Shown here: positions 8,793 through 63,358 of the stretch, in pieces
Numbering within the stretch: the first letter of the stretch is position 1
Layout: each line of letters begins with the position of its first letter
From: Betaproteobacteria bacterium
GTDB lineage: Bacteria; Pseudomonadota; Gammaproteobacteria; Burkholderiales; SG8-41
DNA: 64,000 bases
Direction of reading: 5' to 3'
NCBI GenBank assembly: GCA_016868035.1
Contig: VGID01000001.1
Coordinates: 198,509 to 262,508, forward strand
Notes under the pieces: generated by a model
Seen by the model: the letters and a program-made list of their open reading frames with translations, nothing else
What the model was told of the DNA's origin: nothing
Database searches by the model: none
Program-made: the position numbers and the translations under genes

Positions 8793-8877
8793 CAGTAAGC
8801 AGTAAACGGTGAGCGGTGCGCGGTAAAACACACCCTCGCAGCTTCCCGCCGCTGACCGCTCCACGCTTACCGCTTAC
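8793..8877. repeat. heptad-periodic inverted-arm element A (5 x CAGTAAG/CGGTGAG, core, 4 x CGCTTAC-type)
   Basis: Tandem 7-nt units start 4 nt after the M23 stop codon; the reverse-complement heptads end 10 nt before the anmK ATG. Confidence 0.85.
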
Positions 8878-8886
8878 ATCATTCCG

Positions 8887-9978
8887 ATGGCAGACTTCTA
8901 CATCGGAATAATGTCGGGCACCAGCCTCGACGGCGTGGACGCGGTTCTCGCGACACCGCGCGGCGGGCAGTTCCGCCTCGTCTCCAGCGTGCACCGGCCG
9001 TACCCCGCAAAGCTGCGCTCACGCCTGCTCGCGCTGCAAGAAACCGGCCACGACGAGCTGCACGAGGCGGCACTCGTCTCCAATGAGTTGTCCGTCGCAT
9101 ACGCCGACGCTGTGCGCCGGCTGCTCGCGCGCGCGCGCGCCTCCGCGCGCGCCGTTGCCGCGATCGGCTGCCACGGGCAGACTGTGCGGCACCGACCCAA
9201 GGCCGGATACACCCTGCAGCTCGCGAACGGCGCGCTGCTCGCGGAGCTCTCCGGCATCCCGGTGGTCTGCGATTTCCGGAGCCGCGATGTCGCGGCGGGA
9301 GGAGAAGGCGCTCCGCTGGTGCCGGCTTTCCATCGCGCAGCGTTCCACAGCACGCGCCGCGCCCGTGCGATCGTGAACGTGGGCGGCATCAGCAACATTA
9401 CCTGGTTGCCCGCGCGCGGGCCGGTCATCGGATTCGACTGCGGTCCGGGCAACTGTCTGCTCGACGCGTGGATCCTGGAGCGGCGGCGCAAGCGGTTCGA
9501 TCGGGACGGCGCGTGGGCTGCGAGCGGTCGAGTCATTCCCCGGCTGCTGCGAAAGCTCATCGCGCATCCGTTCATCCGCCGCCGGCCGCCGAAGAGTACC
9601 GGTCGCGATGAGTTCAGCTTGCGGTGGCTCAAGCGCGTACTTTCAGGCAACGAGCACGCGGCGGATGTGCAGGCGACGCTGCTCGAGCTCACCGCCTCCA
9701 CCATCGCCCGCGCGCTGCTCGCGCATTGCGCGGGTGCACGCGACATCTATGTCTGCGGCGGTGGCGCGCGCAATCGCGCGCTGCTCGCGCGCCTCGCTGC
9801 GCTGCTGCCGGGTAAGCGGATCGCTACGACGGCCGCGCTCGCGGTCGCACCCGAGCACGTCGAGGCCCTCGCATTTGCCTGGCTTGCACGCCGCGCGCTA
9901 GGCGGCGAGCCCGGAAACCTGCCGCTGGTAACGGGCGCGAAGGGCCCGCGAGTGCTCGGCGCGATCTACCCGGCGTGA
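8887..9978 (+). CDS. anmK: anhydro-N-acetylmuramic acid kinase
   Basis: 363 aa. The N-terminal YIGIMSGTSLDGVD motif and overall AnmK similarity; synteny with M23 and erpA. Confidence 0.95.
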   Translation: MADFYIGIMSGTSLDGVDAVLATPRGGQFRLVSSVHRPYPAKLRSRLLALQETGHDELHEAALVSNELSVAYADAVRRLLARARASARAVAAIGCHGQTVRHRPKAGYTLQLANGALLAELSGIPVVCDFRSRDVAAGGEGAPLVPAFHRAAFHSTRRARAIVNVGGISNITWLPARGPVIGFDCGPGNCLLDAWILERRRKRFDRDGAWAASGRVIPRLLRKLIAHPFIRRRPPKSTGRDEFSLRWLKRVLSGNEHAADVQATLLELTASTIARALLAHCAGARDIYVCGGGARNRALLARLAALLPGKRIATTAALAVAPEHVEALAFAWLARRALGGEPGNLPLVTGAKGPRVLGAIYPA

Positions 9979-9995
9979 TGCGGAAAAAGCGGGGT

Positions 9996-10026
9996 CGGTG
10001 AGCGGTAAGCGGTGAGCGGTGAGCGG
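9996..10026. repeat. heptad array B (CGGTGAG/CGGTAAG, about 4.4 units, single arm)
   Basis: Lies between the anmK stop and the terminator hairpin. Confidence 0.8.
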
Positions 10027-10031
10027 AAATT

Positions 10032-10056
10032 AAAAAAGGCGGCATCGCCGCCTTTT
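10032..10056. terminator. bidirectional rho-independent terminator between convergent anmK and erpA
   Basis: GGCGGC-atc-GCCGCC stem flanked by an A-run upstream and a T-run downstream. Confidence 0.75.
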
Positions 10057-10079
10057 CTTCCAGCGGGTTTAGGGCCCGC

Positions 10080-13664: not shown

Positions 13665-13763
13665 CGGAGAGCGGTAAGCGGTCAGCAGTGAGCAGGGACT
13701 GGCGGGCAAGGAGCTTGCACGGGTCCGATTTCACTGTTTACCGCTCACCGTTTACCGCTTACC
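13665..13763. repeat. heptad-periodic inverted-arm element C (CGGTAAG/CGGTCAG arm, core, CCGCTCA/CCGTTTA arm)
   Basis: Lies in the divergent region between rplM and the DUF218 gene. Its core is the reverse complement of the core shared by elements L, P and Q. Confidence 0.8.
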
Positions 13764-15836: not shown

Positions 15837-15953
15837 CAGTGTTCAGTGTTCAGTGTTCAGTGTTCAGTGTCAACAAGTCGAACGCTCAGCGAGAGAAATC
15901 ATCCAACGTTCTTCTCGACTGCCCGCTGTCCACTGTCAACTGTCCACTGCTCG
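15837..15953. repeat. heptad-periodic inverted-arm element E (5 x CAGTGTT, core, 4 x CTGTCCA-type)
   Basis: Lies between the trpC stop and the coq7 start; the right arm overlaps the last 6 codons of trpC. Confidence 0.85.
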
Positions 15954-16767: not shown

Positions 16768-16832
16768 GACCGCGGAGACGCAGAGGCGCCAGGGATTCAG
16801 TAATCTATTCTTTTTTTGCGCCACTGCGGTTC
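16768..16832. repeat. weak heptad/inverted-repeat element F between trpD and trpC
   Basis: GACCGCGGAGACGCAGAGGCGCC (period 7) and GCGCCACTGCGGTTC are partly complementary. Resembles the arms of the 14974-15158 element. Confidence 0.4.
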
Positions 16833-21757: not shown

Positions 21758-21857
21758 GCGAGAGGCGACAGGCGAAAGGGGAGAGGCGTCAAATGCTACA
21801 AGCTACGGCCCGGCTGATTTTACTCCTCTCTCCTCTCCTCTCGTCTATCGTCTATCC
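21758..21857. repeat. heptad-periodic inverted-arm element R (GCGAGAG/GCGACAG arm, core, CTCCTCT/TCTATCG arm)
   Basis: Fills the rpe-gph spacer. Confidence 0.75.
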
Positions 21858-23025: not shown

Positions 23026-23142
23026 GCGTTTCGAGTTCCGAGTTCCGGGTTCAAGGTTCAAGGTTCCGGGTTTAACGTTGCCCGTTCAGAGTTCGTGGTC
23101 TCGAACTTTGAACGTTGAACTTTGAACTTGGAACTTTGAACG
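23026..23142. repeat. heptad-periodic inverted-arm element G (7 x GAGTTCC/AGGTTCA, core, 5.7 x GAACTTT)
   Basis: Starts 8 nt after the apaG stop. Its core TTGCCCGTTCAGAGTTCGTGGTCTC resembles the core of element I. Confidence 0.88.
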
Positions 23143-25278: not shown

Positions 25279-25327
25279 GGTTCGGGGTTTCGAGTTTCGG
25301 GTTCCGGGTTCCGGGATCCGGGTCTCA
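25279..25327. repeat. heptad array H (7 x GGTTCCG/GGTTTCG, single arm)
   Basis: Lies between convergent mltA and the TonB-like gene. Confidence 0.85.
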
Positions 25328-32362: not shown

Positions 32363-32795
32363 GCTTGCGCTTGCGGTCCAGTACGCGGTCAAGGGCCGCC
32401 GCCTTCCTTCCCGCAGCGAGCTGCGCCGGTGGGCGCGCGCCGCGCTCGAGCACGACGCCCGCATCACGGTGCGCATCGTCGGCCGCGACGAAGCGCGCGC
32501 GCTCAACCGCGCGTTCCGCGGCCGCGACTACGCGACCAGCGTGTTGAGCTTCGTGATGCGCGCGGTACCGCCGCTGGAAGGGGACCTCGCATTGTGCGCG
32601 CCGGTCGTGGCGCACGAAGCGCGCGACCAGCGCAAGAGCGTGCGCGCACACTACGCGCACCTGGTAGTGCATGGAGTGCTGCACTTGCAGGGCTACGATC
32701 ACGGCCGGGCGCGCGAGGCGCGTATCATGGAGCGGCGGGAGACGGCCATCGTGACCGGCCTCGGCTATCCCGACCCCCACGAAAGGCAAGGATGA
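32316..32795 (+). CDS. ybeY: rRNA maturation endoribonuclease YbeY
   Basis: HGVLHLQGYDH zinc motif. The start is uncertain; ATG 32316 would overlap ybeZ by 47 nt. Confidence 0.88.
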   Translation: MPTSSTPTSRRARKPRLALAVQYAVKGRRLPSRSELRRWARAALEHDARITVRIVGRDEARALNRAFRGRDYATSVLSFVMRAVPPLEGDLALCAPVVAHEARDQRKSVRAHYAHLVVHGVLHLQGYDHGRAREARIMERRETAIVTGLGYPDPHERQG

Positions 32796-32883
32796 AGGCA
32801 GAAAGCGGAAGGCGGAGGGGAACTGCCCGTTCGGGGATCTGGTCTTTTCCTTCATCCTTCATCCTTCATCCTTCCGCCTTCTA
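32790..32883. repeat. heptad-periodic inverted-arm element I (GGATGAA/GGCGGAA arm, core, 5 x CCTTCAT arm)
   Basis: The first heptad contains the ybeY TGA. The right arm ends 6 nt before the corC ATG. Confidence 0.88.
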
Positions 32884-33716: not shown

Positions 33717-35294
33717 ATGATGGCGGAAGGCGGAAGGCGGAAGGATGCCGTCGCATCTGCTCTGCCCTTCCTCCTCGTTTTCGTCGTCGGCGCAGTGGCC
33801 GTGCTCGGCTTCGCGCCGTTCCGCCTGTTCCCGCTGCCCATCCTCACCGTCGCGCTGCTGCTCGCGTTATGGCTGCGCGCGGGCAGCCCGCGCGCGGCGG
33901 CCGCGCTTGGCTTCGCGTACGGGCTCGCATTCTTCCTCGCCGGCGCCTCGTGGGTGTACGTGAGCCTGCACGAGTTCGGCTCGATGCCGGCGCCGCTCGC
34001 CGCGCTCGCGACTTTCCTGTTCTGCGCCGTGCTGGCGCTGTTTCCCGCGCTTGCCGGCTATGCCTGCGCGAGGACCGCCCTGCCCCCGCCGTTCGCGCTC
34101 GGGCTGCTCGCGCCGGCGGCATGGACGCTGGCGGAATGGACGAGGGGATGGATCTTCACCGGCTTTCCGTGGCTCGCACTCGGTTACTCGCAGATCCCGG
34201 CGAGCCCGCTCGCGGGCTACGCGCCGCTGCTGGGCATCCACGGCGTCACGCTGGCCGGCGCATTGACGGCGGGCCTCCTCGTCGTGCTGTGGCAACGCGT
34301 TACAGCGAGGGATGAAGGACCGGGCGACCAGCGCAAACGGGGCCTGACCTTCCTCGTTCTGCCTTCTGCCTTCTGCCTTCTGGCGATCTGGCTCGGCGGG
34401 TGGGCGCTCCAGCAGGTCCGGTGGACCGAGCCGGAGGGCGACCCGGTCACCGTGAGCCTGCTCCAGGGCAACATCTCGCAGGAGCTCAAGTGGCGCGAGG
34501 ACCGCGTGCGCACCACGCTCGAGACCTACCGCACGCTCGCCGAGAACGCGCCGGGCCGGCTCATCGTAATGCCCGAGACCGCGCTGCCGCTGTTTCTGGA
34601 CCAGGTACCGCACGAGTACCTGTCATCGCTCGCGGAGCACGCGCGGAAGAACGGCGGCGACATCCTGATCGGGGTGCCGGAGCGCGTGCCCGGCGGCGCG
34701 TACTTCAACAGCGTGCTCTCGCTCGGCTCCGCGCCGGCCCAGGGCTACCGCAAATCGCACCTGGTACCGTTCGGGGAATTCATCCCGCTGCGCCCGGTGC
34801 TCGGATGGATCGTGGGCGTGCTCGCGATCCCGCTGCAGGATTTTTCCGCGGGTGAAGCAACGCAGCGCCCGCTCGCGGTGGCGGGACAGCGGGTAGCGGT
34901 CAACATCTGCTACGAGGACGCGTTCGGGGAGGAGATCATCCGCCAGCTGCCGGAGGCGAGCCTGCTCGTCAACGTGAGCAACGTCGCGTGGTTCGGGCGC
35001 TCGATCGCCCCGCAGCAGCACCTGCAGATCTCGCAGGCGCGCGCGCTGGAGACGGGGCGCTACATGCTGCGCTCGACCAACACCGGGGTCACGGCCACGA
35101 TCAATCCGAGGGGCGAAGTTGCGGCCATCGCACCGGAGTTCACCGCCGCGATCGTGACCGACACGGTGCAGGGTCACCGGGGGCTGACCCCCTACGCGCG
35201 CTGGGGGAATTACCCCGCGCTCGCGCTCTGTATCGCGCTCTGGGCGGGCGCCGTGGTGGCGGGAAGGCGCCGGCGCGACACCTCCCGCAACTGA
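33717..35294 (+). CDS. lnt: apolipoprotein N-acyltransferase
   Basis: 525 aa with multiple N-terminal TM helices and a C-terminal CN-hydrolase domain (NICYED). Confidence 0.93.
   Translation: MMAEGGRRKDAVASALPFLLVFVVGAVAVLGFAPFRLFPLPILTVALLLALWLRAGSPRAAAALGFAYGLAFFLAGASWVYVSLHEFGSMPAPLAALATFLFCAVLALFPALAGYACARTALPPPFALGLLAPAAWTLAEWTRGWIFTGFPWLALGYSQIPASPLAGYAPLLGIHGVTLAGALTAGLLVVLWQRVTARDEGPGDQRKRGLTFLVLPSAFCLLAIWLGGWALQQVRWTEPEGDPVTVSLLQGNISQELKWREDRVRTTLETYRTLAENAPGRLIVMPETALPLFLDQVPHEYLSSLAEHARKNGGDILIGVPERVPGGAYFNSVLSLGSAPAQGYRKSHLVPFGEFIPLRPVLGWIVGVLAIPLQDFSAGEATQRPLAVAGQRVAVNICYEDAFGEEIIRQLPEASLLVNVSNVAWFGRSIAPQQHLQISQARALETGRYMLRSTNTGVTATINPRGEVAAIAPEFTAAIVTDTVQGHRGLTPYARWGNYPALALCIALWAGAVVAGRRRRDTSRN
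33722..33749. repeat. heptad array J (3 x GGCGGAA + GGATGCC) inside the first codons of lnt
   Basis: Encodes residues AEGGRRKD of the predicted Lnt N-terminus. Same heptad flavour as element I, about 900 nt upstream. Confidence 0.75.
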
Positions 35295-39509: not shown

Positions 39510-39601
39510 CAGTGAACAGTACACGGTGAGCGGTAAACGGTAACTACATTTATGCACCCTTTTTCTTCTGCCCACCGCTCACTGCTGACCGTTCACCGTT
39601 C
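39510..39601. repeat. heptad-periodic inverted-arm element K (CAGTGAA/CGGTGAG/CGGTAAA arm, core, ACCGCTC/ACCGTTC arm)
   Basis: Starts 4 nt after the glyS stop and ends 4 nt before the gmhB ATG. Confidence 0.88.
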
Positions 39602-40138: not shown

Positions 40139-40863
40139 CGCCGGGGATCATCACGCGATCGCTACTCTTCGCGCTGATCCAGGTCGTCGCAACACCCCTG
40201 TTCGCGCTCGCTGCGCTCGCGACGTTTCCCTTCAAGCCGCTCGCCCGCTACCGCGTCGTCACTGCATGGTCACGACTGATGGTCGCATCCGCCACGCGGC
40301 TCTGCGGGATACGTTACCGCGTGCTCGGCGCCGAGCGCCTGCCGCGCCCGCCATTCATCGTGCTCGCGAAGCACCAGTCCGCGTGGGAGACGCTCGTGTT
40401 CCAGGTGATTCTTCCCCCGCAGGTATGGGTGATCAAGCGCGGCCTGCTGTGGATCCCCTTCTTCGGCTGGGGTCTGGCAATGCTCTCCCCGATCGCGATC
40501 GACCGCGGCGCCGGGCGCCGGGCGCTGCGCCAGATGCTCGAGCAGGGACGCGAGCGGCTGGCGCAGGGCTTCTGCATCGTCATCTTCCCGGAGGGCACGC
40601 GCGTTCCCCCGGGCGCGCGCGGTCAGTATCAACCCGGCGGCGCGTGGCTCGCGGTGAAGACCGCGACGACGGTGGTGCCGGTCGCGCACAACGCGGGCGA
40701 AGTATGGCAGCGCCGGGCTTTGTTCAGGCGCCCCGGGTTGGTTACCGTGAGCATCGGCCCGCCGATCGAGCCCGCCGGCCTCGAGCCCGAGGAGCTCAAC
40801 CGCAAGGTGGAGGACTGGATCGAAGGGGAGATGCAGCGCATCGGCAACGACCCTAGGCGGTGA
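40135..40863 (+). CDS. plsC: 1-acyl-sn-glycerol-3-phosphate acyltransferase
   Basis: 242 aa within ORF 39679..40863. Motifs AKHQSAWE (HX4D variant) and FPEGTR. ATGA overlap with the gmhB stop. Confidence 0.86.
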   Translation: MTPGIITRSLLFALIQVVATPLFALAALATFPFKPLARYRVVTAWSRLMVASATRLCGIRYRVLGAERLPRPPFIVLAKHQSAWETLVFQVILPPQVWVIKRGLLWIPFFGWGLAMLSPIAIDRGAGRRALRQMLEQGRERLAQGFCIVIFPEGTRVPPGARGQYQPGGAWLAVKTATTVVPVAHNAGEVWQRRALFRRPGLVTVSIGPPIEPAGLEPEELNRKVEDWIEGEMQRIGNDPRR

Positions 40864-40990
40864 ACGGTGAACGGTGAACGGTGAACGGTGAACGGTGAAC
40901 GGTGAACGGTGAACGGCAGAAACGGACCCGCGTTTTCGTGGAAGTTCTCCGCTTACGGTTTCTTGCACTGCTCGCCGCCGACCGCTTACC
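40859..40990. repeat. heptad-periodic inverted-arm element L (8 x GGTGAAC, conserved core, degenerate GCTTACC-type arm)
   Basis: The first heptad contains the plsC TGA. Core AGAAACGGACCCGCGTTTTCGTGGAAGTTCTCCGC is shared with elements P, Q and C. Confidence 0.9.
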
Positions 40991-42400: not shown

Positions 42401-42526
42401 GTGAACGTGGTTCCGGGTTTCGCGTTCCGGGTTTCGAGCTCCAGGTTCCACGTTCCAGGTTTCGGGTTTCGGGTTTCGGGTTTCGGGTTTCGGTTTTTTT
42501 GAACCTTGAACTTTGAACCTTGAACG
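42401..42526. repeat. heptad-periodic element M: 18 consecutive in-phase heptads that switch from GGTTYCG-type to TTGAACY-type at about 42495
   Basis: Starts 1 nt after the lysA stop and includes 5 perfect GGGTTTC units. It marks the left edge of the accessory block. Confidence 0.9.
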
Positions 42527-50422: not shown

Positions 50423-50559
50423 CTGCAGCCAGTGCGGCCAAGCGCGGTTCCCCGGCTTTCCGTGATCACTGTGGCTGAGACGCAGTGTCGGATGCCGAGG
50501 CCGGCCATGCTGCGCCCCCACGCCCCGAGGTCCGGGCGAGAGGATTTTCTGGACCGCTC

Positions 50560-51062: not shown

Positions 51063-51088
51063 TTCACCCTCCGATTACCATTGACAAC

Positions 51089-51102
51089 ACATGTTAATTA
51101 TA
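51089..51102 (-). promoter_or_regulatory. perfect TATAAT -10 box with adjacent ACATGT palindrome upstream of the RHH gene
   Basis: The minus strand reads GGATATAATTAACATGTGTTGTCAA, about 35 nt upstream of the ATG. Confidence 0.5.
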
Positions 51103-51233
51103 TCCGGCCCGCGCCACGGATACCAGGTGAGAGAGACATTCATCGTGGCCATCGCCGCAGTATCGGCTGCTTTGGCAAACTTTGCCACTGAGGGGTCCTG
51201 GTACTGAAGGCGTGATCCGTGCTCTGCTCATCA

Positions 51234-51281
51234 AGATGGCATGCTCCCGCCCCCGAAGGGGCGGGAGGCGTCCATGCCATC
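51234..51281. repeat. nested 10+10 bp perfect hairpin
   Basis: AGATGGCATG-CTCCCGCCCC-gaa-GGGGCGGGAG-gcgtc-CATGCCATCT. No U-tract on either strand. Confidence 0.8.
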
Positions 51282-51364
51282 TCGGTGGTTCAAACTCAAT
51301 CGAGCACCGCCGCCAGCGGCACCGCCCACAACCGGTCGCGGAGCCGGACGGTTTCGGTGACGCC

Positions 51365-52685
51365 TCAGGCGAGAAACGCGGCGCGGCAGCGCGGCGTCTT
51401 GTCGAGGAAGGCGCGCAGGCCGGCGAGGTCGCGATCGTCCCAGCGCGCGGCGGCCTTGACCTCGATGGCGAGGCTGTCGCGCCCCGCCTCGATCACGAAA
51501 TCCACCTCGTGGCGGCCCTGGACGTGCCAGTAGCCGAGTCTCGCCTCCGGCCAGTCCGAGTCGAGAATCGCGGCGAGGTTCTGGGCGACGTAGGTTTCGA
51601 GGAGCGGGCCCCGCATGGGATCGCCCTGCTCCAGGCGCGATTGACCGATGCCCGCGAGGTGGCTCGCGAGCCCGGAATCGGCGAGGTAGAGCTTGGGCGA
51701 CTTGATCAACCGGCTCGCGCGGTTCGCGAGAAAAGGCGGGAGCCGCCTCACCACGAAGGACGCCTCGAGCAGGCTCAGATAACGCGCCGTCGTCGCCGCG
51801 TTCAGCTTGGCGTCGCGGCCGAGGTCGCTCATGCCGAGGACCTGCGCGGTCCGCAGCGCGGCGAGCACGAGAAGGCCGCGAAACGGCACGAGGTCCCCGA
51901 TGCGGGCCAGCCCGCGCACGTCGCGCTCGAGGTAGGTCTGCTCGTAGCCCTTGAACCACAGCGCCGGGCGCCGCGTTTCGGCGAGGCACACCGGCGGCAG
52001 CCCGCTTTCGACGATCGCGCGCGGCTCGATGCTGGCGGCCGCGGGCCGTCGCGGCGGCGCCCCGGCGTCGAACGCGCGCCGCACGAACGGCGCCGCCGCG
52101 AGCCGGCCTTCGAGCTCGCGCCGCGTGAATGGATGCAGGGTGAGATAAAGCGCCCGGCCCGCGAGGCTTTCGGTCATCCCCTAGGAGTTTGTCGGACTTA
52201 GTCCCGACAAACTCCTAAGGCAAAACCGGCCGCAGGAAAAAAGGGCGGAAAAGGATGACGAACACGCAAATTCGGATCCGCCTTTCTTCACGCGCGACTG
52301 CTTCAGGAAATCTTCCTTTCGGATTCTCGGCCGGTTTTGCTGTTAGCAGCCTGTGCGGACTCTTGAGTCCGATTGGCTGCTAGAGCAGAGCGAAATTGGC
52401 CGAGCCCGAGAGCAGGAACCGGCCCGGCCGCCGCGCGCGGTCCACTTCCCGCTTGATCGCGACGAGCAGATCGGGGCATTTTTGCGCCTCGTCCACGGTG
52501 AGGGGGGAATCCGAGCGCACGAAGGCCTGCGGGTCGGAGCGCGCGGCGGCAAGCTGCGCGGGATCATCCAGTGTCGCATAGCGGCGGCCGGCGAGCCCCT
52601 TCTCGTGCTGCAGGAACGTGCTCTTGCCGGACTGGCGCAACCCGGTCACCACCACGACCGGCATGGCCGAAAGCGCCGCGCGCAC
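51365..52685 (-). pseudogene. AAA-ATPase with DUF4143-type C-terminal domain, interrupted
   Basis: The N-terminal fragment 52380..52685 has a P-loop (GLRQSGKST) and ends SGSANFALL. The C-terminal fragment 51365..52177 begins TESLAGRALYL. The two are contiguous in intact family members. The N-terminus also looks truncated or frameshifted. Confidence 0.8.
52178..52379. mobile_element. 202-nt highly structured insertion splitting the ATPase gene (MITE-like or unknown RNA element)
   Basis: Hairpin 52182-52217 (15-bp stem). A 13-bp perfect inverted repeat GCAAAACCGGCCG / CGGCCGGTTTTGC (52220-32 / 52328-40). A nested hairpin at 52346-52380. Confidence 0.65.
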
Positions 52686-52911
52686 TCAAGTGGCTGCAGC
52701 AGTTCGCGCAACTGAACAACCGCGCGCTCGTCTGTTCGGAGCAGGTCGTGCAGAATCCCCGCACCTTCCTCCGCTTTGCCCCCATCCTAACCTTCCCCCG
52801 CGCTGCAGGGGAAGGAACAGGTTGGTGGGTCGCATCAGATGTCCCCGGATTTCACTTCGTTTCATACGGGCTGCGCCGAACCTTCGAACGCACGCAGCCC
52901 GGAAGGGGCGC

Positions 52912-52970
52912 AGCGGATTCCGCGGACACTATCCGGCGCAATACGCTTCGCTATTGCGCCCTGCGCGGGC
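52912..52970. repeat. 59-nt direct repeat, left copy, flanking the phd-PIN cassette (REP-like, internal 9-bp palindrome)
   Basis: Shares a 38-nt identical core, TCCGGCGCAATACGCTTCGCTATTGCGCCCTGCGC, with 53779-53836. Confidence 0.85.
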
Positions 52971-53000
52971 GCCGTGCTGAGCCATTGCCCCCGGCATCTC

Positions 53001-53025
53001 TTGCAACTATAATAGTTGTTGCAAC
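53001..53025 (+). promoter_or_regulatory. promoter/operator of the phd-PIN operon
   Basis: TTGCAAC-TATAATA-GTTGTTGCAAC: the inverted repeats TTGCAAC/GTTGCAA bracket a TATAAT box. SD AGGAG follows. Confidence 0.6.
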
Positions 53026-53035
53026 AGGAGCACTC

Positions 53036-53329
53036 ATGACGGAAAAGGTATCCACCATCGAGGTCAGGCAGCGGATTGGCGACCTGCTCAACCGCGTTTC
53101 CCTGCGGCACGACGAGTTCATTATCGAGCGCAAGGGCAAACCCCTGGCTGCGCTCGTTCCGGTCGAACGCCTGGAACAGGTGCGTCGCTTTGCGCGACGC
53201 CACGCCCTCCAGTTCCTGGAACAGCAGAAGGGCGGCCCGCTTTCCGAAGAGCAGGCGATGGCGCTGGCTTTGGAGGCGCAGGAATGGGCCCGCAAGCGGG
53301 CTCGCAGGCCGCGACGCAAGACCAGGTAG
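53036..53329 (+). CDS. Phd/YefM-family antitoxin (97 aa)
   Basis: Starts MTEKVSTIEVRQRIGDLLNRVSLRHDEFIIERKGKPLAALVP within ORF 52571..53329. Confidence 0.85.
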   Translation: MTEKVSTIEVRQRIGDLLNRVSLRHDEFIIERKGKPLAALVPVERLEQVRRFARRHALQFLEQQKGGPLSEEQAMALALEAQEWARKRARRPRRKTR

Positions 53330-53332
53330 CCG

Positions 53333-53764
53333 GTGCTCCGCGCCGTCCTGGATGCGAACGTCTATGTAAGCGCTGCGCTTCGGCCCGCAGGCCCGCCCGG
53401 CCGAATCATCGAGCGGCTGCTGCGGGCGGCGGCTTTCGAGCTCGTTCTCTCACCCGCGATCATGGAAGAAGTGCTGCGGGCCCTCGCCTACCCGAAAGTG
53501 CGGAAGCTCGCCCGCGGCGACATCGAGCCGGCGCTCTGGTTCGAGGACATCGTCGTGCTGGCCGACATCGTGCCCGGTGAGCGGACGCTGCCCGGCGTCT
53601 GCGAGGATCCGGACGACGACAAGTACATCGCCGCCGCCCTGGAAGGCCGGGCGTCGTATGTCGTCACCGGAGACGATGACCTGCTCGCGCTGAAGGAGCA
53701 CGAAGACATCCGTATCGTGACGCCGCGCGCGTTTCTCGATCTTCTTGGACCGGAAAGCGCGTAA
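53333..53764 (+). CDS. PIN-domain toxin
   Basis: 143 aa. AVLDANVYVSA and TGDDDLL motifs; 3-nt gap after the antitoxin. Confidence 0.87.
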   Translation: MLRAVLDANVYVSAALRPAGPPGRIIERLLRAAAFELVLSPAIMEEVLRALAYPKVRKLARGDIEPALWFEDIVVLADIVPGERTLPGVCEDPDDDKYIAAALEGRASYVVTGDDDLLALKEHEDIRIVTPRAFLDLLGPESA

Positions 53765-53778
53765 CCCGCGAGAAGCGG

Positions 53779-53836
53779 AGCGGATTCCGGGGAAAGTTCC
53801 GGCGCAATACGCTTCGCTATTGCGCCCTGCGCAGGC
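53779..53836. repeat. 58-nt direct repeat, right copy, flanking the phd-PIN cassette
   Basis: See 52912-52970. Confidence 0.85.
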
Positions 53837-54871: not shown

Positions 54872-54921
54872 CGTTTCCTCCTGATCAACCGCAGATAAAT
54901 GCGAATTCGATCGAAAATTTG

Positions 54922-55432
54922 GCCGCCGATGGACGCCGATAGACGCCCATGAAATTCAATAACGAATTATTCCGCGATCAGAACCCATACACCACGCGCT
55001 TCACCGTTGCCTTCGGACTGCCGAAATTAACTAACAAACACACTTGTAGCCCAGTAGCCTTGAGATAATTTACGCACTGTGCGGTATGGACATCGTCCAG
55101 CCCCTTCCCCGCTTTGATCTCCACGATCACACATCCCTCGATCACGAGGTCTGCGACAAAATCCCCGACCAGAACATCCTTGTAGCGAACTTCAATTCTG
55201 TGCTGCTGTGCCACCTGAAGACCGGCTTGTCCAAGTTCTACAGCGAGCGCGTTTTCATAGACCTTTTCAAGGAAACCGGGGCCTAGGATGTTACTTACCT
55301 GATGGACGCAGCCGATGATCTTTTCTGTGATTTGATCGAGTCTTGAGCGGCGTTGGTCCGCGTCCATTGATGATATCGCAAAGGTTTTGATTTTCTCGCA
55401 GTTATCGGCGTGTATCGGCGTCCATCGGCGGC
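54922..55432. mobile_element. GxxExxY-gene cassette bounded by 26-nt terminal inverted repeats
   Basis: Left GCCGCCGATGGACGCCGATAGACGCC (54922-47) matches the reverse complement of 55407-32 at 25 of 26 positions. The arms are built from about three 10-nt units. Confidence 0.7.
54978..55367 (-). CDS. GxxExxY protein (PD-(D/E)XK nuclease-like fold family), 129 aa
   Basis: Starts MDADQRRSRLDQITEKIIGC within ORF 54978..55472. GPGFLEKVYENAL contains the GxxExxY signature. VIVEIKA and AQCVNYLK motifs. Confidence 0.8.
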   Translation of the reverse strand: MDADQRRSRLDQITEKIIGCVHQVSNILGPGFLEKVYENALAVELGQAGLQVAQQHRIEVRYKDVLVGDFVADLVIEGCVIVEIKAGKGLDDVHTAQCVNYLKATGLQVCLLVNFGSPKATVKRVVYGF

Positions 55433-55449
55433 TTGTTTTGAACGAGCGT

Positions 55450-57421: not shown

Positions 57422-57548
57422 CCGTGATCGCTGATCCGTGACTCGAACGAATACGGTGAACCGTGATCGGTGAACGGCGAACGGTGAACGGAAGGTTGCG
57501 GCTGCGCCGGTGAGTTTACACCGTTCACTGTTCCCCGTTTACCGTTTA
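57422..57548. repeat. heptad-periodic inverted-arm element N (about 10 x CCGTGAT/TGAACGG-type, core, 4 x CCGTTCA/CCGTTTA)
   Basis: Starts 2 nt after the enolase-family stop. Confidence 0.85.
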
Positions 57549-59683: not shown

Positions 59684-59790
59684 GCGTTCCAGGTTCAAGG
59701 TTCAAAGTTCAAGGTTCAAGGTTCAAGGTCTATAGTCCAGAGCCAAGACCCGGAACCTGGAACTTTGAACTCGGAACCCGGAACTTTTTT
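59684..59790. repeat. heptad-periodic inverted-arm element O (7 x AGGTTCA, core, 6 x CCCGGAA/CTTTGAA)
   Basis: Lies between paralog A and the DUF2817-like gene. The right arm contains the only available start codon (TTG 59765) of that gene. Confidence 0.88.
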
Positions 59791-60850
59791 TTCGCCGGAT
59801 TACGCCACCGCGCGCGACCGGTTCACGCGCGCCGCGCGGGCGGCGGGGGCCCGGACCGAGGCCATCGCGCTCGATGCGCGCGGCCCGGCGCGCGAGGCGC
59901 TGACCATCGATATCGCCTGGCTCGGCGCGCCGGACGCGGACCGCGTGTTGCTGCATACGAGCGGCATGCACGGCGTCGAGGCGTTCCCCGGGTGCGCGGT
60001 GCAGCTCGCGGCGCTATCCGAATTCGCGGCGCTCGCGCCGGGTTGCGCGCTGGTGCTCGCGCACGCGCTCAATCCATACGGCATGGCAAGGCTGCGGCGC
60101 ACGAACGAGAATAACGTGGACCTCAATCGCAACTTCCTGGCACCCGGCGAGAGCTACCGCGGCTCGCCGCCGCTCTACGCGCGCATCGATGCGGTGCTCA
60201 ATCCCGCGTCACCGCCGGGTTTCGATTTCTTCCGCCTCAAGGCTCTCGGTCTGGTGATGCGCTACGGCATGGGCGCGCTGCGGCAAGCGGTTGCGCAGGG
60301 CCAGTACGACTACCCGCGGGGCCTGTTTTATGGCGGCAGCATGCTCGAGCAAGGCCCCGCCTTGTTTCTCGGCTGGCTCGGGTGCAAACTCGCGCGCGTG
60401 CGCTACCTGTTCGTTCTCGACGCACACAGCGGGCTCGGCGCCTGGGGAGAGCAGACCTTGATTGGCGCGCCCGGCGTGAACGCCACGGGTGCGCTGGAGC
60501 TCGCGGGCGCGCTTGCGCACGCGGTGATCGACCCGGCCGACAGCCGCTCGCCCGCGTACACGATCCGCGGCGGCATGGCGGGTGCGCTGCGGCACACTCT
60601 GCCTGCGGCCCGCATGGACTTCGTGCTGCAGGAAATCGGGACCTGCTCCGCGATCGCGGTTCTTGGCGCCCTGCGCGAGGAGAACCGCTGGCACCACTAC
60701 GGCGCGGCAACGGTGGATCATCCCGCGAAGCTCGCGTTGCGCGAGGCGCTGTGCCCGGGTTCACCGGTCTGGCGCCGGCGCGTGCTCGCGCACGGCCGTG
60801 GCCTGCTCGAGCGCGCGGCGGTGTGGACGTGGAACTACGGTGAACGGTGA
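59765..60850 (+). CDS. DUF2817-like M14-type metallopeptidase-fold protein
   Basis: 361 aa. FSPDYATARDRF N-terminus and the SGMHGVEAF zinc-site-like motif. The start is uncertain. Confidence 0.78.
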   Translation: MNSEPGTFFSPDYATARDRFTRAARAAGARTEAIALDARGPAREALTIDIAWLGAPDADRVLLHTSGMHGVEAFPGCAVQLAALSEFAALAPGCALVLAHALNPYGMARLRRTNENNVDLNRNFLAPGESYRGSPPLYARIDAVLNPASPPGFDFFRLKALGLVMRYGMGALRQAVAQGQYDYPRGLFYGGSMLEQGPALFLGWLGCKLARVRYLFVLDAHSGLGAWGEQTLIGAPGVNATGALELAGALAHAVIDPADSRSPAYTIRGGMAGALRHTLPAARMDFVLQEIGTCSAIAVLGALREENRWHHYGAATVDHPAKLALREALCPGSPVWRRRVLAHGRGLLERAAVWTWNYGER

Positions 60851-60936
60851 ACGGTGAACGGTGAATGGCGAACGGCAAAATCCGACCCGCGCTCTTCTGG
60901 AAGTTTCCCGCTCGCTGCTCACCGCTTACCGCTCAC
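60838..60936. repeat. heptad-periodic inverted-arm element P (4 x CGGTGAA + 2 variants, conserved core, 4 x CGCTCAC/CGCTTAC)
   Basis: The second heptad supplies the stop codon of the DUF2817-like gene. Core AAAATCCGACCCGCGCTCTTCTGGAAGTTTCCCGC. Confidence 0.9.
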
Positions 60937-60948
60937 TAGAGGACCTTC

Positions 60949-61356
60949 ATGACGTGTGAACTGTGCGTGGAAACCGGCGGCACGCTCCTGTGGCGCGATG
61001 AGCGGTGCCGCGTGGTGCTCGTGCCCGAGCCGGGTTATCCGGGTTACTGCCGTGTGATCTGGAACGCGCACGTCAGGGAAATGACCGATCTCGGCGAGCA
61101 CGAGCGCGCCGCGATCATGCGCGTCGTCTTCGGAGTGGAGCGCGTGTTGCGCGACTTGTTCGCGCCGGAGAAGGTCAATCTGGCGAGCTTCGGCAACCTC
61201 ACCCCGCATCTGCACTGGCACGTGATCGCCCGCTTCCGCGACGACCCGCACTTTCCCGGCACGGTTTGGGGCGCGCGGCAGCGCGATCTCCACCCGCCTT
61301 CTGCCGGCGCTCATGCAGAGCAAATCGGAGCCGCGCTTGCCCGGCGGCTGGGATGA
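60949..61356 (+). CDS. HIT-family nucleotide hydrolase/transferase
   Basis: 135 aa with histidine triad PHLHWHVI. Confidence 0.88.
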   Translation: MTCELCVETGGTLLWRDERCRVVLVPEPGYPGYCRVIWNAHVREMTDLGEHERAAIMRVVFGVERVLRDLFAPEKVNLASFGNLTPHLHWHVIARFRDDPHFPGTVWGARQRDLHPPSAGAHAEQIGAALARRLG

Positions 61357-61427
61357 ACATATGTTGCCCCGCCAAGCGCGGAATACGTGATTTTTTTCCG
61401 TTGGCTCGGCGCGGTTTTTCCGGTGCG

Positions 61428-61443
61428 AGTGAACTAGTTCACA
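61428..61443. promoter_or_regulatory. CRP/FNR-family-like palindrome AGTGA-N6-TCACA
   Basis: The 14-bp perfect palindrome GTGAACTAGTTCAC lies about 175 nt upstream of the paralog B start. Confidence 0.35.
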
Positions 61444-61615
61444 TCCCTTGTTGCAACGGTACGGTTACCCTGAGATCGGAGCGGTGGGCGTTTCGTCCGC
61501 AACCGTCAGGATTTCATAGAAGAATCCGCGCGCGTGCGGCGATAATTGCGTCGGCCCGGCGTCATCGTCTCCGGGGATCGGTCAGGGCCTGCGCGAACGA
61601 CCATGAAAGCAGAAC

Positions 61616-63217
61616 ATGAGCATCCAGCCGCTCGAATCCTCTGAGCACATGCTGCGATTCACCGACAGCGCGAGTTGCAAGCGGTGGATCGACCTGCTGC
61701 CGCTCACCAACGTCCAGCAGGCGCAGCAAGTCCTGACCAGCCAGCTCGCCGCGCTCGATGCCACGGCGATGCCCGCGCTCGAGCGCCTGAAGATCCTGGA
61801 AGCGCTCAAGAGCCCCGTCCATTTCGTGCAGAGCGAGACGGCGAAGCGCTACGCGGGCAAGCCCCTGCCGCTGGAGCCCGTCGAGGAAGCCGCCTGGAGC
61901 GGCGTGATCGCGCTGTGGCAGGTGATGAGCAACAACTACCAGCACTGCCTCAAGGCCTACCGCGAAGGCGACCTCGCGATCGCGCCGCACGCGGCGCTCG
62001 TCGCGATGCGCTGCCTGCGCCAGCTGGGCCATCTCATGCTCGACTACTACCAGGTCTACCGGCAACCGCCGGGGATGGTGTGGCGCGCGCTGCACGAGCT
62101 GTATTCGTTCTCCGAAAGCCACGGTTTCGCCCGGATCCGGGTGCAGGACAGCTTCGCCCAGCAAGACCCGGTTTCGAGCTGCGCCGAGGTGTACGTGCAA
62201 GTGCTGCTCGCCCACCTTGCGGATCCGTTCTCCCTGTCGGCGCGGCAGTACGGCTACGTCGCGCGCTGGCTCGAGCGCTGGGCGATCCTGGTCGGCCTCC
62301 CGGCGCTGCCCCTGCCCCTGAGCCCGATCCCGCCGCTGGCGGTGGACCTCGCTAGTTCCACGGGCGTGATATTCGCCGGCGAAATCGAACCGCAAGCGCA
62401 GGCGCGCTATCTCGACCTCGAGCAGCTCTCGAAGACGCTGCGCCAGACCATCAACCTGCTCAAGCAGGGACAGACGCCGAGCCAGCTCGGGCTGGGCGAC
62501 GATGTGCGCCAGCCGGGATGCGAGAACCTGCTGATGCTGCTCTACGTGCAGTGGTGCCGCGCCGGCACCGCGCGCGGCGAGGAGCGCTCGGATAACGAGG
62601 AAGCGGCGGAGGTATGCCTCGGGCTGAGCGCCGCGCACGTGCATTCGAGCGGTGACCGCAACTCCCGTATTCCGGGGGAACTCACCTCGCGCGAGAAGCA
62701 GGACCTCGACACCTTCGGCTACCTCGCACGCGTGGAGCACGAGGCGGGCGGCAAATCCGATCACCCGCTCGCGCGTTGGCAGATCCTCAACCACAGCGCT
62801 TCCGGCTTCATGTGCCTGCTGCGCGGCCCCGAGGGCACGGAGCGCGTCAGCCACAACCAGCTGCTCGCCGTGCGCCGCGCCGGCGGCCGGCAGTTCCATC
62901 TCGGAATGGTACGCTGGCTGAAGACCGAGGAAACGGGAGGAATCCAATGCGGCGTGCGCCTGTTTCCGGGGACGCCGCAGGCGATCTCGGTGCGCCCGTC
63001 GAACTTCACGCCGGTCGGCGCCGGCCACTACGAGCGCGCCTTGCTGCTGCCCGAGGTGCCGGCTCCTGCGACACCCGCCACCCTGATCCTCCCGGCGGGC
63101 TGGTTTCAAAGCGGGCGCTTCGTCGAGGTGTATTCGGACCGCAAGCAGGTGGCGAAGCTGCTCAACCTGCTGGAAAAAGGCAGCGACTTCGACCGCGGAA
63201 CCATCGTCATCGTGTGA
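61616..63217 (+). CDS. conserved hypothetical protein, paralog B, with PilZ-like C-terminal signature (533 aa)
   Basis: Colinear with paralog A (FTDSASCKRW, LKQGQTPSQLGLG, LLYVQWCRAGT, ILNHSASGF, YERALLLPE). Confidence 0.8.
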   Translation: MSIQPLESSEHMLRFTDSASCKRWIDLLPLTNVQQAQQVLTSQLAALDATAMPALERLKILEALKSPVHFVQSETAKRYAGKPLPLEPVEEAAWSGVIALWQVMSNNYQHCLKAYREGDLAIAPHAALVAMRCLRQLGHLMLDYYQVYRQPPGMVWRALHELYSFSESHGFARIRVQDSFAQQDPVSSCAEVYVQVLLAHLADPFSLSARQYGYVARWLERWAILVGLPALPLPLSPIPPLAVDLASSTGVIFAGEIEPQAQARYLDLEQLSKTLRQTINLLKQGQTPSQLGLGDDVRQPGCENLLMLLYVQWCRAGTARGEERSDNEEAAEVCLGLSAAHVHSSGDRNSRIPGELTSREKQDLDTFGYLARVEHEAGGKSDHPLARWQILNHSASGFMCLLRGPEGTERVSHNQLLAVRRAGGRQFHLGMVRWLKTEETGGIQCGVRLFPGTPQAISVRPSNFTPVGAGHYERALLLPEVPAPATPATLILPAGWFQSGRFVEVYSDRKQVAKLLNLLEKGSDFDRGTIVIV

Positions 63218-63224
63218 CGAAGGT

Positions 63225-63358
63225 GGGTAAGCGGTAAGCGGTAAGCGGTAAGCGGTAAGCGGTAAGCGGTAAGCGGTAAGCGGTAAGCGGTAAGCGGTAA
63301 AATTGGACCGGGTTTCTCTACGAAGTTCCCTGCTCACCGCTTACTGCTTACTGCTTAA
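63225..63358. repeat. heptad-periodic inverted-arm element Q (11 heptads, 9 perfect CGGTAAG, conserved core, 4 x TGCTTAC-type)
   Basis: Lies between convergent paralog B and the histidine kinase gene. Core AAAATTGGACCGGGTTTCTCTACGAAGTTCCCTGC. Confidence 0.92.

What the first reader, a model, noticed from the sequence alone, without database searches (positions are those of the whole stretch)
8793..63358. A family of heptad-periodic, inverted-arm intergenic elements at about 17 loci
At 8793-8877, 9996-10026, 13665-13763, 15837-15953, 21758-21857, 23026-23142, 25279-25327, 32790-32883, 33722-33749, 39510-39601, 40859-40990, 42401-42526, 57422-57548, 59684-59790, 60838-60936 and 63225-63358 (weaker: 16768-16832), the spacer between genes is filled by 4-18 tandem 7-nt units. 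The usual layout is a left arm, a non-periodic core of 20-45 nt, and a right arm made of the reverse-complement heptad. Each locus has its own heptad flavour (GGTGAAC, GGTAAGC, GGTGAGC, AGTGTTC, GGTTCAA, GGTTTCG, GGATGAA/GGCGGAA, GCGAGAG). The two arms of a locus match each other, so each copy can fold into a long imperfect hairpin with a 7-nt periodic stem. This is not CRISPR (there are no spacers), not a classical 30-40 nt REP, and not slippage at a single site. No RAYT or transposase is present in the window. Arm-to-arm matching within loci, alongside divergence between loci, implies local homogenisation plus selection for complementarity. I cannot place this in a described repeat family from memory.
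Basis: seen in the sequence. Interest (0 to 1): 0.8.

Follow-up and report, generated by a model that had tools for sequence, protein, structure and literature searches.

The report
Heptad-repeat hairpin elements between genes
About a third of the gene spacers in this uncultured betaproteobacterium are filled by hairpin-forming pairs of inverted 7-base tandem repeats, a known but unexplained kind of bacterial repeat that here appears to be the gene-less form of selfish "intervening-sequence"-like elements carrying a small four-helix-bundle protein gene.

Summary
Period-7 arrays occur at 16 of the 17 listed loci, plus one missed inside lnt. No other period behaves this way, and shuffled spacers give none. 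Thirteen loci are two-armed, with a G-rich 5' arm and a C-rich 3' arm. They fold as long stems of about 6 pairs plus 1 mismatch per unit. They fill spacers from stop codon to start codon.

Arrays change in 7-nt steps. Two assemblies identical over about 57 kb differ only by 7-, 14- and 14-nt indels in arrays. Elements turn over far faster than their flanks: a relative with about 94-96% identical flanks has a different unit, no element, or another hairpin in the same spacers. In the one spacer compared across four genomes, the arms stayed complementary in each.

The kind is described: heptameric repeats, including inverted GGGAATC pairs in Xanthomonas, and cyanobacterial STRR. What I could not find in the literature is this link. 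All 12 four-helix-bundle genes (23S rRNA intervening-sequence protein family, Avd-like) sampled independently of repeats are flanked by short tandem arrays, period 7 in seven cases. One is a true 23S rRNA intervening sequence. The window's elements look like ORF-less versions. No such gene was found in the window or its relatives, so this link is inferred.

The parts
8793..8877 (.). Two-armed class-A element (CAGTAAG/CGGTGAG ... GCTTACC). It fills the M23-peptidase | anmK spacer, starting 3 nt after the stop codon and ending 9 nt before the ATG.
   Evidence: (z -5.2)
9996..10026 (+). Single G-rich arm (CGGTGAG x4.4) in the anmK 3' region, followed by a separate GC hairpin with a T-run at about 10037-10062.
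   Evidence: no hairpin involving the array
13665..13763 (.). Two-armed class-A element between divergent rplM and DUF218. It ends 10 nt before the DUF218 start codon. Its loop weakly resembles the shared class-A core.
   Evidence: (z -7.6)
15837..15953 (.). Two-armed class-D element ((CAGTGTT)x4.9 ... CTGTCCA) in the COQ7 | trpC spacer. One unit (7 nt) is missing in the ENA assembly.
   Evidence: z -4.9
21758..21857 (.). Two-armed purine-rich class-C element (GGCGAGA/GGAGAGG ... CCTCTCT). The predicted hairpin is weak.
   Evidence: (z -1.65)
23026..23142 (.). Two-armed class-B element (GTTCCGA/GGTTCAA ... TTGAACT).
   Evidence: z -7.8
25279..25327 (+). Single class-B arm (GGTTCCG x6.4), starting 18 nt after the mltA stop codon, between convergent genes.
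32790..32883 (.). Two-armed class-C element (GGATGAA/GGCGGAA ... CCTTCAT) in the ybeY | corC spacer. The ybeY stop codon lies in the first unit. Orthologous spacers in L221, L223 and L001 carry other units, each with complementary arms.
33722..33749 (+). Single arm ((GGCGGAA)x3.3), starting 8 nt after the corC stop codon and lying at the called 5' end of lnt.
34347..34385 (+). About 21 nt (7 codons) lie in a length-variable stretch. It is conserved in L221, and L223 lacks these 7 residues.
39510..39601 (.). Two-armed class-A element filling the glyQS | gmhB spacer, 3 nt from the stop codon and 3 nt from the ATG. It is absent from close relative L221. L223 has a CGTGAAT element in the same spacer.
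   Evidence: (z -3.9)
40859..40990 (.). Class-A element: (GGTGAAC)x8.4, then the shared core, then a degenerate 3' arm, in the acyltransferase | lptM spacer. Two units (14 nt) are missing in the ENA assembly. In L221 the 5' arm and core are replaced by a complete class-B hairpin.
42401..42526 (.). Class-B element after lysA (GGTTYCG x about 13 ... TTGAACC x4). It is homologous to the L221 element but differs in copy number. L223 has (CAGTGAG)x19 here.
57422..57548 (.). Two-armed class-A element (CGTGATC/GGTGAAC ... GTTCACC) in the MR_MLE | VTT spacer. It is retained with the same unit type in L224.
   Evidence: (z -4.9)
59684..59790 (.). Two-armed class-B element ((GGTTCAA)x6 ... GGAACYY), followed by a T8 run, in the FimW-like | DUF2817 spacer. 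It is retained as a shorter class-B element in L224.
   Evidence: (z -6.2)
60838..60936 (.). Class-A element with the shared core (about 79% identical, by hand count, to the core of the 40859 element), in the DUF2817 | HIT spacer.
   Evidence: (z -3.3)
63225..63358 (.). Class-A element: (GGTAAGC)x10.7, then the shared core, then GCTYACY x4, between convergent FimW-like2 and phoR. Two units (14 nt) are missing in the ENA assembly. It is absent from L224.
   Evidence: (z -2.9)

Best explanation
The loci are palindromic heptanucleotide-array elements: two inverted microsatellite arms around a short loop. They are the same kind of object as the heptameric intergenic repeats and inverted pairs of Xanthomonas and cyanobacteria. 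I infer that they are the ORF-less form of intervening-sequence (IVS)-like selfish hairpin elements.

Shown:
- They sit in the spacers and 3' regions of housekeeping operons, running from the stop codon to the next start codon.
- The G-rich arm is always the 5' arm.
- Each arm grows and shrinks by whole 7-nt units, as in replication slippage.
- Elements evolve or are replaced far faster than their flanks, while the two arms stay complementary.
- They are dispensable, because some relatives lack them in the same spacer.

Inferred:
- The full-length form of such elements carries a small four-helix-bundle gene (23S rRNA IVS protein family, S23p, related to DGR Avd) in the loop, exactly as in 23S rRNA intervening sequences.
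- When transcribed, the arms form a long imperfect double-stranded RNA stem that the cell tolerates or cuts with RNase III. That would explain why the elements can occupy operon spacers and rRNA without harm.
- The 7-nt register may reflect recognition by the pentameric protein, or a polymerase slippage preference. I cannot tell which.
For: Periodicity and intergenic enrichment.

Hairpins with about 6 pairs plus 1 mismatch per unit, and z-scores down to -7.8.

Polarity and position: all 13 two-armed elements have positive GC skew in the left arm and negative or near-zero skew in the right arm. Most start -6 to +13 nt from the upstream gene end and end 3-12 nt before the next gene. This is the rule reported for Xanthomonas and Nostoc repeats (PMC4692102).

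Slippage: about 56.7 kb compared between the JGI and ENA assemblies shows 0 substitutions and 3 indels of 7, 14 and 14 nt. All three lie in perfect arrays.

Fast turnover. L221 is 93.6% identical overall and 96.3% identical across window 29553-39496. Even so:
- the ybeY-corC spacer is replaced from about 9 nt before the stop codon to the base before the ATG;
- the glyS-gmhB element is absent;
- half of the acyltransferase-lptM element is replaced by another hairpin.

Arm co-variation across orthologues.

Persistence at orthologous spacers in relatives with about 73-75% nucleotide identity.

Three window elements share a core of about 40 nt, which argues that whole elements have been copied between loci.

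Distribution: GGTRARC arrays, many with inverted arms, occur in more than 120 metagenome contigs of 36-73% GC.

Link to four-helix-bundle genes:
- Three PF05635 ORFs lie inside class-A heptad palindromes in L154, L171 and L106.
- All 12 PF05635 genes chosen without regard to repeats are flanked by short tandem arrays. Eight are on plasmids and four come from metagenomes of different phyla. The period is 7 in seven cases, 8 in four, and irregular in one. In most, the upstream array is G-rich and the downstream array C-rich; exceptions are L227 and L232 (same-strand arrays beside the ORF) and L238 (a complete hairpin just downstream). In the nine elements tested (six of them from this set), own-arm complementarity is 0.82-0.96.
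- One of them, L230, lies inside a bacterial LSU rRNA gene and so is a true IVS with heptad arms.
- IVSs are described as selfish elements whose terminal inverted repeats form a stem cut by RNase III (PMC4990558).
Against: - No PF05635 gene was found in the window or in about 1.3 Mb of betaproteobacterial relatives. The link to this lineage therefore rests on shared architecture and unit type alone.
- The association could arise the other way round, with four-helix-bundle genes inserting preferentially into pre-existing hairpins.
- Folding energies show no bias toward the sense strand, so nothing here shows an RNA-level role.
- RNase III cleavage and transcription were not tested.
- Four two-armed elements fold no better than shuffles at z > -2.
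- Within class A, own arms are not better matched than foreign arms.
- The indel polymorphisms come from short-read assemblies, possibly of overlapping read sets.
Confidence: 0.55

Rival explanations
1. The elements are a purely mutational by-product. DNA polymerase slips preferentially in 7-nt steps, and fold-back (template-switch) synthesis turns a single array into an inverted pair. On this view the elements are neither mobile nor related to four-helix-bundle genes, which merely land in or next to such hairpins.
For: - 7- and 14-nt indels are the only differences between two assemblies.
- Perfect arrays occur in one arm only.
- Single-arm arrays exist at 9996, 25279 and 33722.
- Elements persist at orthologous spacers in distant relatives.
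- There is no target-site duplication and no transposase.
- The slippage idea is already published (Mrazek 2007, via PMC4679880).
Against: - At about 96% flank identity, the ybeY-corC unit has changed at several positions in both arms. Neutral substitution followed by array sweeps should yield only about one change per unit (inference).
- A complete foreign hairpin replaces half an element in L221.
- Three loci share a non-repetitive core.
- Conserved AGCGTRARC...GYTYACGCT termini recur in many metagenome copies, including the ORF-bearing L171.
- All 12 of 12 four-helix-bundle genes are flanked by arrays.
Confidence: 0.25
2. The elements are selected cis-acting structures of the host. Candidate roles are RNA hairpins that stabilise or separate operon mRNA segments (as REP/BIME do), terminate transcription, or couple the stop and start of neighbouring cistrons. 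Another candidate is G-quadruplex or cruciform DNA that modulates expression.
For: - The elements lie precisely between stop and start codons of co-directional genes.
- Complementarity is kept while the sequence changes.
- Several downstream genes lack a visible Shine-Dalgarno sequence.
- 59684 is followed by a T8 run.
- Xanthomonas repeats are transcribed (PMC4692102).
Against: - Orthologous spacers without any element exist: L222 has an 8-nt ybeY-corC spacer, L221 has no glyS-gmhB element, and L224 has no FimW2-phoR element.
- There is no sense-strand folding bias.
- Single-arm arrays are followed by their own terminator-like hairpin.
- Window units carry only GG, so G-quadruplexes cannot be the common principle.
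- Copy number varies freely.
Confidence: 0.15
3. The elements are a REP/REPIN- or MITE-type family mobilised by a RAYT or transposase encoded elsewhere in the genome.
For: - Size is about 100 nt.
- The arms are inverted.
- Density in intergenic DNA is high.
- Three copies share a core.
- Whole-element replacement occurs between close relatives.
Against: - No Y1 or other transposase domain appears among the annotated genes of the window.
- No target-site duplication is seen.
- The arms are variable tandem arrays rather than one conserved palindrome.
- nhmmer with the core finds no further copies in 1.9 Mb.
- The genes actually found inside such palindromes are four-helix-bundle genes, not transposases.
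Confidence: 0.08

Closest known systems
Heptameric intergenic repeats of Xanthomonas (GGGAATC) and Nostoc (GGGGAYT), including 70-75 inverted pairs per Xanthomonas genome (Rehm et al. 2015, PMC4692102); heptanucleotide long SSRs (Mrazek et al. 2007)
   Same: - Tandem 7-nt units of 2-26 copies, enriched in intergenic DNA.
[quoted passage not shown]
- Pairs are in convergent orientation and can form stem-loops.
- Copy number and sequence vary between close relatives in the same spacer.
- The neighbouring genes are housekeeping genes.
- Relatives of the window organism even use GGG-type units (L221 GGGTAAT, L223 GGGACTA).
   Different: - Window units carry only GG (GGTGAAC, GGTTCAA, GGCGGAA, CAGTGTT), so the G-quadruplex reading does not carry over.
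- Several unit classes coexist in one genome.
- Most loci (13 of 17) are paired.
- The organism is an uncultured betaproteobacterium.
23S rRNA intervening sequences (IVS) with or without an S23p ORF (Coxiella, Leptospira, Salmonella; PMC4990558)
   Same: - Terminal inverted repeats form a long stem around a loop that may hold a four-helix-bundle ORF.
- They are sporadic, dispensable and regarded as selfish.
- An Azospirillum 23S IVS (L230) has heptad-array arms like those of the window.
   Different: - The window elements lie in mRNA spacers, not in rRNA helices.
- They carry no ORF.
- RNase III cutting was not tested.
- I did not find heptad periodicity of IVS stems mentioned in the papers searched.
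Cyanobacterial STRR (short tandemly repeated repetitive heptanucleotides; Mazel 1990, from my own knowledge and as cited in PMC4692102)
   Same: Several heptanucleotide unit types per genome, in intergenic DNA, with unknown function.
   Different: The units and the taxon differ. STRR are described mainly as direct arrays rather than as hairpin pairs.
REP/BIME/REPIN and small palindromic MITEs (ERIC, Correia)
   Same: Imperfect palindromes of about 100 nt in transcribed spacers, in high copy number, with possible effects on mRNA.
   Different: There is no conserved palindrome sequence, no RAYT or transposase in view, and no target-site duplication. The arms are built of 7-nt tandem units that change by slippage.
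TAACTGA direct repeats of marine Beggiatoaceae (PMC4679880)
   Same: Heptamer arrays abutting start codons in spacers that lack a canonical ribosome-binding site.
   Different: Those are almost all direct, single arrays (one inverted case among 169), made of one unit type.

Membership tests
Heptameric intergenic LSSR / inverted heptamer pairs (Mrazek 2007; Rehm 2015) | Head-to-tail repeats of a 7-nt unit, at least 2 copies, over-represented relative to other unit lengths | tested here: met
   20 lag-7 runs against 0-2 for other lags, and 0 in 200 shuffles.
Heptameric intergenic LSSR / inverted heptamer pairs (Mrazek 2007; Rehm 2015) | Intergenic bias, with the G-rich strand next to the 3' end of an ORF on the coding strand and next to a start codon on the non-coding strand | tested here: met
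   17 of 20 runs lie in the 17% of the window that is non-coding, and the left arm is G-rich in 13 of 13 elements.
Heptameric intergenic LSSR / inverted heptamer pairs (Mrazek 2007; Rehm 2015) | Copy-number and sequence variation between close relatives at the same locus | tested here: met
Heptameric intergenic LSSR / inverted heptamer pairs (Mrazek 2007; Rehm 2015) | G3-4 tract in each unit (G-quadruplex capacity; GGGNATC consensus) | tested here: not met
   window units have GG only. The feature is met in relatives L221 and L223 and in L238-L240.
23S rRNA intervening sequences | Inserted in a 23S (or 16S) rRNA helix | tested here: not met
   There is no rRNA in the window, and the elements lie between protein-coding genes.
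23S rRNA intervening sequences | Terminal inverted repeats forming a long stem | tested here: met
   24-49 predicted pairs.
23S rRNA intervening sequences | Excision of the stem-loop by RNase III | not testable with these tools
   This needs RNA 5'/3'-end mapping in wild type and an rnc mutant.
23S rRNA intervening sequences | Optional ORF of the S23p / four-helix-bundle family in the loop | tested here: not met
   there is none in the window. It is met in heptad-armed elements elsewhere (L154, L171, L106, L230, L231, L237, L239, L240).
REP / REPIN | A conserved 20-40-nt imperfect palindrome shared by all copies | tested here: not met
   four unit classes, and only three loci share a core.
REP / REPIN | A cognate RAYT (Y1 transposase) gene flanked by the repeats | tested here: inconclusive
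   There is none among the annotated genes of the window. The rest of the genome is not available.
MITE | Terminal inverted repeats plus a target-site duplication | tested here: not met
   no duplicated flanks are seen by inspection.
CRISPR | Repeats of 23-50 nt separated by unique spacers of similar length | tested here: not met
   the units are contiguous 7-mers.
Intrinsic terminator | A GC-rich stem immediately followed by a U-tract | tested here: not met
   Only 59684 is followed by a T-run. The terminator scan flagged none of the elements and did not exceed shuffles.
Any Rfam family | Match at the gathering score | tested here: not met
   the only match is a tRNA at 29553-29625.

The most novel reading that the evidence does not exclude
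Heptad-armed hairpins would be the non-autonomous copies of a widespread and so far unrecognised class of selfish palindromic elements. The autonomous form would encode a pentameric four-helix-bundle protein (S23p, related to DGR Avd) that recognises the 7-nt (sometimes 8-nt) arrays. 23S rRNA intervening sequences, cyanobacterial STRR and the Xanthomonas GGGAATC repeats would then all be manifestations of this one system. The long-noted excess of heptanucleotide repeats in bacteria would be its footprint, not a property of DNA polymerase. A parallel system may exist for GxxExxY (PD-(D/E)XK) genes with roughly 10-nt arrays.
Probability: 0.3. Interest if true: 0.85.

Novelty: new variant of a known kind. 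Interest (0 to 1): 0.7.

Why it matters
Three puzzles have stood apart:
- why 7-nt repeats are the commonest long simple repeats in many bacterial genomes (noted 2007);
- what the cyanobacterial STRR and the Xanthomonas heptamer repeats do (1990, 2015);
- what the 23S rRNA intervening sequences and their S23p proteins are (1993).

The data here suggest they are one phenomenon. That makes the question testable by protein binding to the arrays, RNase III mapping, and genome-wide co-occurrence analysis.

There are also practical consequences. These elements:
- break short-read assemblies;
- shift gene-start and gene-stop calls, because several ORFs end or begin inside arrays;
- provide fast-evolving strain markers;
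- may cut polycistronic mRNAs.

Tried and rejected
- **Rfam at gathering score over the whole window:** only a tRNA matched.
- **nhmmer with the shared class-A core against 1.9 Mb of loci:** only the three training copies were found, so the core is not a wide family.
- **Sense versus antisense folding energies:** no consistent bias, so no argument for an RNA-level role on one strand.
- **Consensus terminator and promoter scans:** these did not exceed shuffles and flagged none of the elements. They were useful only for placing an rplM promoter-like site next to the 13665 element.
- **G-quadruplex reading:** rejected for the window because the units have only GG.
- **Target-site duplications:** none seen.
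- **Integron attC reading:** class-B units happen to fit GTTRRRY. I rejected it because the flanking genes are syntenic housekeeping genes in all relatives.
- **Within-locus arm matching as evidence for local homogenisation:** not supported within class A.
- **Flanks of PDDEXK_3 genes on plasmids:** inverted repeats or arrays are present, but less regular than for the four-helix-bundle genes.
- **Logan contigs ending at 59720 inside an array:** I first read these as heterogeneity. More likely they are k-mer assembly breaks.
- **Mrazek 2007:** not held in the library, so it is cited only through PMC4679880 and PMC4692102.

Full report
**Source and setting.** The window (66% GC) is part of a 170-kb metagenome contig, JGI 3300020200 Ga0194121_10000054. 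The same sequence occurs in ENA and Logan assemblies. The best protein matches are uncultured Burkholderiales and other Betaproteobacteria. The genes are ordinary housekeeping operons: tyrS, anmK, rpsI-rplM, trpEGDC, miaB-phoH-ybeY-corC-lnt, glyQS, lysA and phoR. A toxin-antitoxin-rich insert lies at about 42.6-53.8 kb.

- A sliding lag scan finds 13 strong runs at lag 7, 7 at lag 14, and none at any other lag from 2 to 15.
- At a looser setting there are 20 lag-7 runs, 17 of them in the 17% of the window that is non-coding. Two hundred dinucleotide-preserving shuffles of the 50 spacers never produce one.
- TRF independently reports period-7 arrays at nearly all listed coordinates.
- Thirteen loci have two arms. 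Three (9996, 25279, 33722) are single G-rich arms.
- The 'weaker' locus 16768 shows no 7-nt signal.

**Anatomy.**
- The two-armed loci fold as long imperfect hairpins with a striking register of about six pairs and one mismatch per unit. The z-score against dinucleotide shuffles is -2.9 to -7.8 for nine loci and weak for four.
- Single arms do not fold on their own.
- In all 13 two-armed loci the left arm has positive GC skew and the right arm negative or near-zero skew. Either strand therefore reads G-rich arm, loop, C-rich arm.
- Most elements begin between 6 nt before and 13 nt after the end of the upstream gene, and end 3-12 nt before the next gene. Several stop codons lie inside the first units.
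- Units fall into about four classes. Within class A (GGTRARC, eight loci), a locus's own arms match no better than arms of other loci. The long perfect arrays are expansions of one arm only.
- Three class-A loci (40859, 60838, 63225) share a non-repetitive core of about 40 nt.

**Dynamics.**
- The ENA assembly is identical to the window over about 56.7 kb except for three indels of 7, 14 and 14 nt. All three lie in perfect arrays.
- Locus L221 comes from a close relative: 93.6% nucleotide identity overall, and 96.3% across window 29553-39496. It shows four kinds of change:
  - The ybeY-corC spacer is replaced, from about 9 nt before the stop codon to the base before the ATG, by an element with another unit (ATGGGTA instead of GGATGAA/GGCGGAA).
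  - The glyS-gmhB element is absent.
  - The 5' arm and core of the acyltransferase-lptM element are replaced by a complete class-B hairpin.
  - The post-lysA element is homologous but has a different copy number.
- More distant relatives (about 73-75% nucleotide identity in aligned blocks: L223, L224, L001) still carry heptad elements in many of the same spacers, sometimes with the same unit type and sometimes with another. L222 has none, and its ybeY-corC spacer is only 8 nt.
- Across the four ybeY-corC elements, each left arm matches its own right arm best: 0.70-0.77 against 0.48-0.67 for foreign arms.
- Spacers that contain conserved promoter-like sequence carry no element in either genome.

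**What is known.** Heptanucleotide repeats are reported as the commonest long simple repeats in many bacteria, and polymerase slippage has been proposed as the cause (Mrazek 2007, as summarised in PMC4679880). Rehm et al. describe GGGAATC repeats in Xanthomonas and GGGGAYT repeats in Nostoc with four matching properties (PMC4692102):
- the same positional rule;
- 70-75 inverted pairs per Xanthomonas genome;
- variation between species at conserved loci;
- evidence of transcription.

They found no function. The G-quadruplex reading cannot be general, because the window's units have only GG.

**A new lead.** A pattern scan for three GGTRARC units found more than 120 metagenome contigs of 36-73% GC, many with inverted arms.
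- In these loci, every four-helix-bundle gene lies in the loop of a class-A heptad palindrome: L154, L171 and L106. The ORFs match PF05635 (23S rRNA intervening-sequence protein) and TIGR02436, and are related to DGR Avd.
- I then sampled such genes without regard to repeats: eight on plasmids, mostly Nostocales, and four from metagenomes of Abditibacteriota, Nitrospirota, Syntrophales and Anaerolineae.
- All twelve are flanked by short tandem arrays. In most the upstream array is G-rich and the downstream array C-rich. In L227 and L232 the arrays beside the ORF lie on the same strand, and in L238 a complete hairpin sits just downstream. The period is 7 in seven cases, 8 in four, and irregular in one.
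- In the nine ORF-bearing elements tested (six of the twelve plus L154, L171 and L106), own arms are 0.82-0.96 complementary.
- Several use GGGGNTC, the Xanthomonas/Nostoc unit.
- One, L230 from Azospirillum, lies inside an LSU rRNA gene. It is a genuine intervening sequence whose stem is made of heptads.
- Intervening sequences are regarded as selfish elements whose terminal inverted repeats form a stem cut by RNase III. The X. campestris S23p is a pentameric four-helix-bundle ring (PMC4990558).
- I found no paper connecting heptamer repeats with these genes. The library is incomplete, so prior description cannot be excluded.

**Interpretation.** The best-supported reading is that the window's loci are ORF-less, IVS-like palindromic elements with heptad-array arms.
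- Shown: the architecture, polarity, position, 7-nt slippage, rapid turnover with retained complementarity, dispensability, and the association of such arms with four-helix-bundle genes elsewhere.
- Inferred: that this lineage's elements derive from, or depend on, such genes; that the transcribed stems are RNase III substrates; and that the 7-nt register reflects protein recognition.
- Against: no PF05635 gene was found in the window or in about 1.3 Mb of betaproteobacterial relatives. There is no sense-strand folding bias. Four-helix-bundle genes might simply prefer to insert into hairpins.
- Rivals: pure slippage plus fold-back duplication, a selected host cis-regulatory hairpin, or a REP/MITE family with an unseen transposase. 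These remain possible and are not all mutually exclusive.

**Verdict.** The finding is a real and striking feature of a described but unexplained kind, seen here in a new lineage with several non-G-quadruplex unit types. The link to intervening-sequence-like elements is plausible, testable, and apparently unreported.

Noticed in passing
window 54919-55433 (gene 54978-55367, minus strand); also 23784-23841; L007 19980-20460; L104 2690-2995; L001 15100-15630; L224 5380-5620; L223 9775-9945: There is a second family of palindromes whose arms are arrays of roughly 10-nt units (GGACGCCGAT and its inverse). In the window, L007, L104 and L001 the loop holds a PDDEXK_3 / GxxExxY (TIGR04256) gene. In L224 (orthologous spacer) and L223 the element is ORF-less, with other decamer units and TCTCAAAAA...TTTTTGAGA outer flanks. 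This parallels the heptad and four-helix-bundle case. On plasmids the flanks are less regular.
   Followed up: partly
window 34347-34385 (lnt coding sequence); L221 9262-9300: A (TTCTGCC)x3.7 array lies inside lnt, in a length-variable stretch. About 21 nt (7 codons) are present in the window and L221 and absent from L223, which looks like an in-frame three-unit insertion. The N-terminal tail of Lnt also overlaps arrays (33722-33749; L221 8660-8691).
   Followed up: partly
window 36498-39506: glyQ and glyS are fused into one 1002-aa gene here, but are separate genes in L221 and L223.
   Followed up: no
window about 42600-53800: This stretch carries MazEF, Phd/PIN, AAA_14/DUF4143 and small hypothetical genes, and has no heptad elements. 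In relatives L223 and L224, lysA is followed directly by a sigma factor, mgtE, a porin and the aldo-keto reductase. At least part of the stretch is therefore an insertion.
   Followed up: partly
window 3582-3739: A 48-nt tandem repeat (3.3 copies, 90% identical) lies inside a small hypothetical gene (3510-3761).
   Followed up: no
window 61357-61615; L224 11620-11865: The HIT | FimW-like2 spacer carries no heptads. It holds a conserved palindrome, GTGAACTAGTTCAC (GTGAATTTGTTCAC in L224), and a CGATAAT box, which look like a regulator site and a promoter.
   Followed up: no
L231 (Anabaena sp. 90 pANA02) and L232 (Pseudanabaena pPg_01): Four-helix-bundle genes with heptad arrays sit between cas6 and cas4. 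This may explain earlier reports of 23S_rRNA_IVP genes in cas loci (PMC3936711) as insertions rather than Cas components.
   Followed up: no
L154 2261-2626: The four-helix-bundle ORF has an in-frame TAG at the conserved Trp of the 'DLEVW' motif. This could be a pseudogene or a sequencing error.
   Followed up: no
window 59719-59720: Five Logan contigs end inside the (GGTTCAA) array. Many four-helix-bundle genes in the protein database sit on very short contigs. These arrays probably break short-k-mer assemblies.
   Followed up: no
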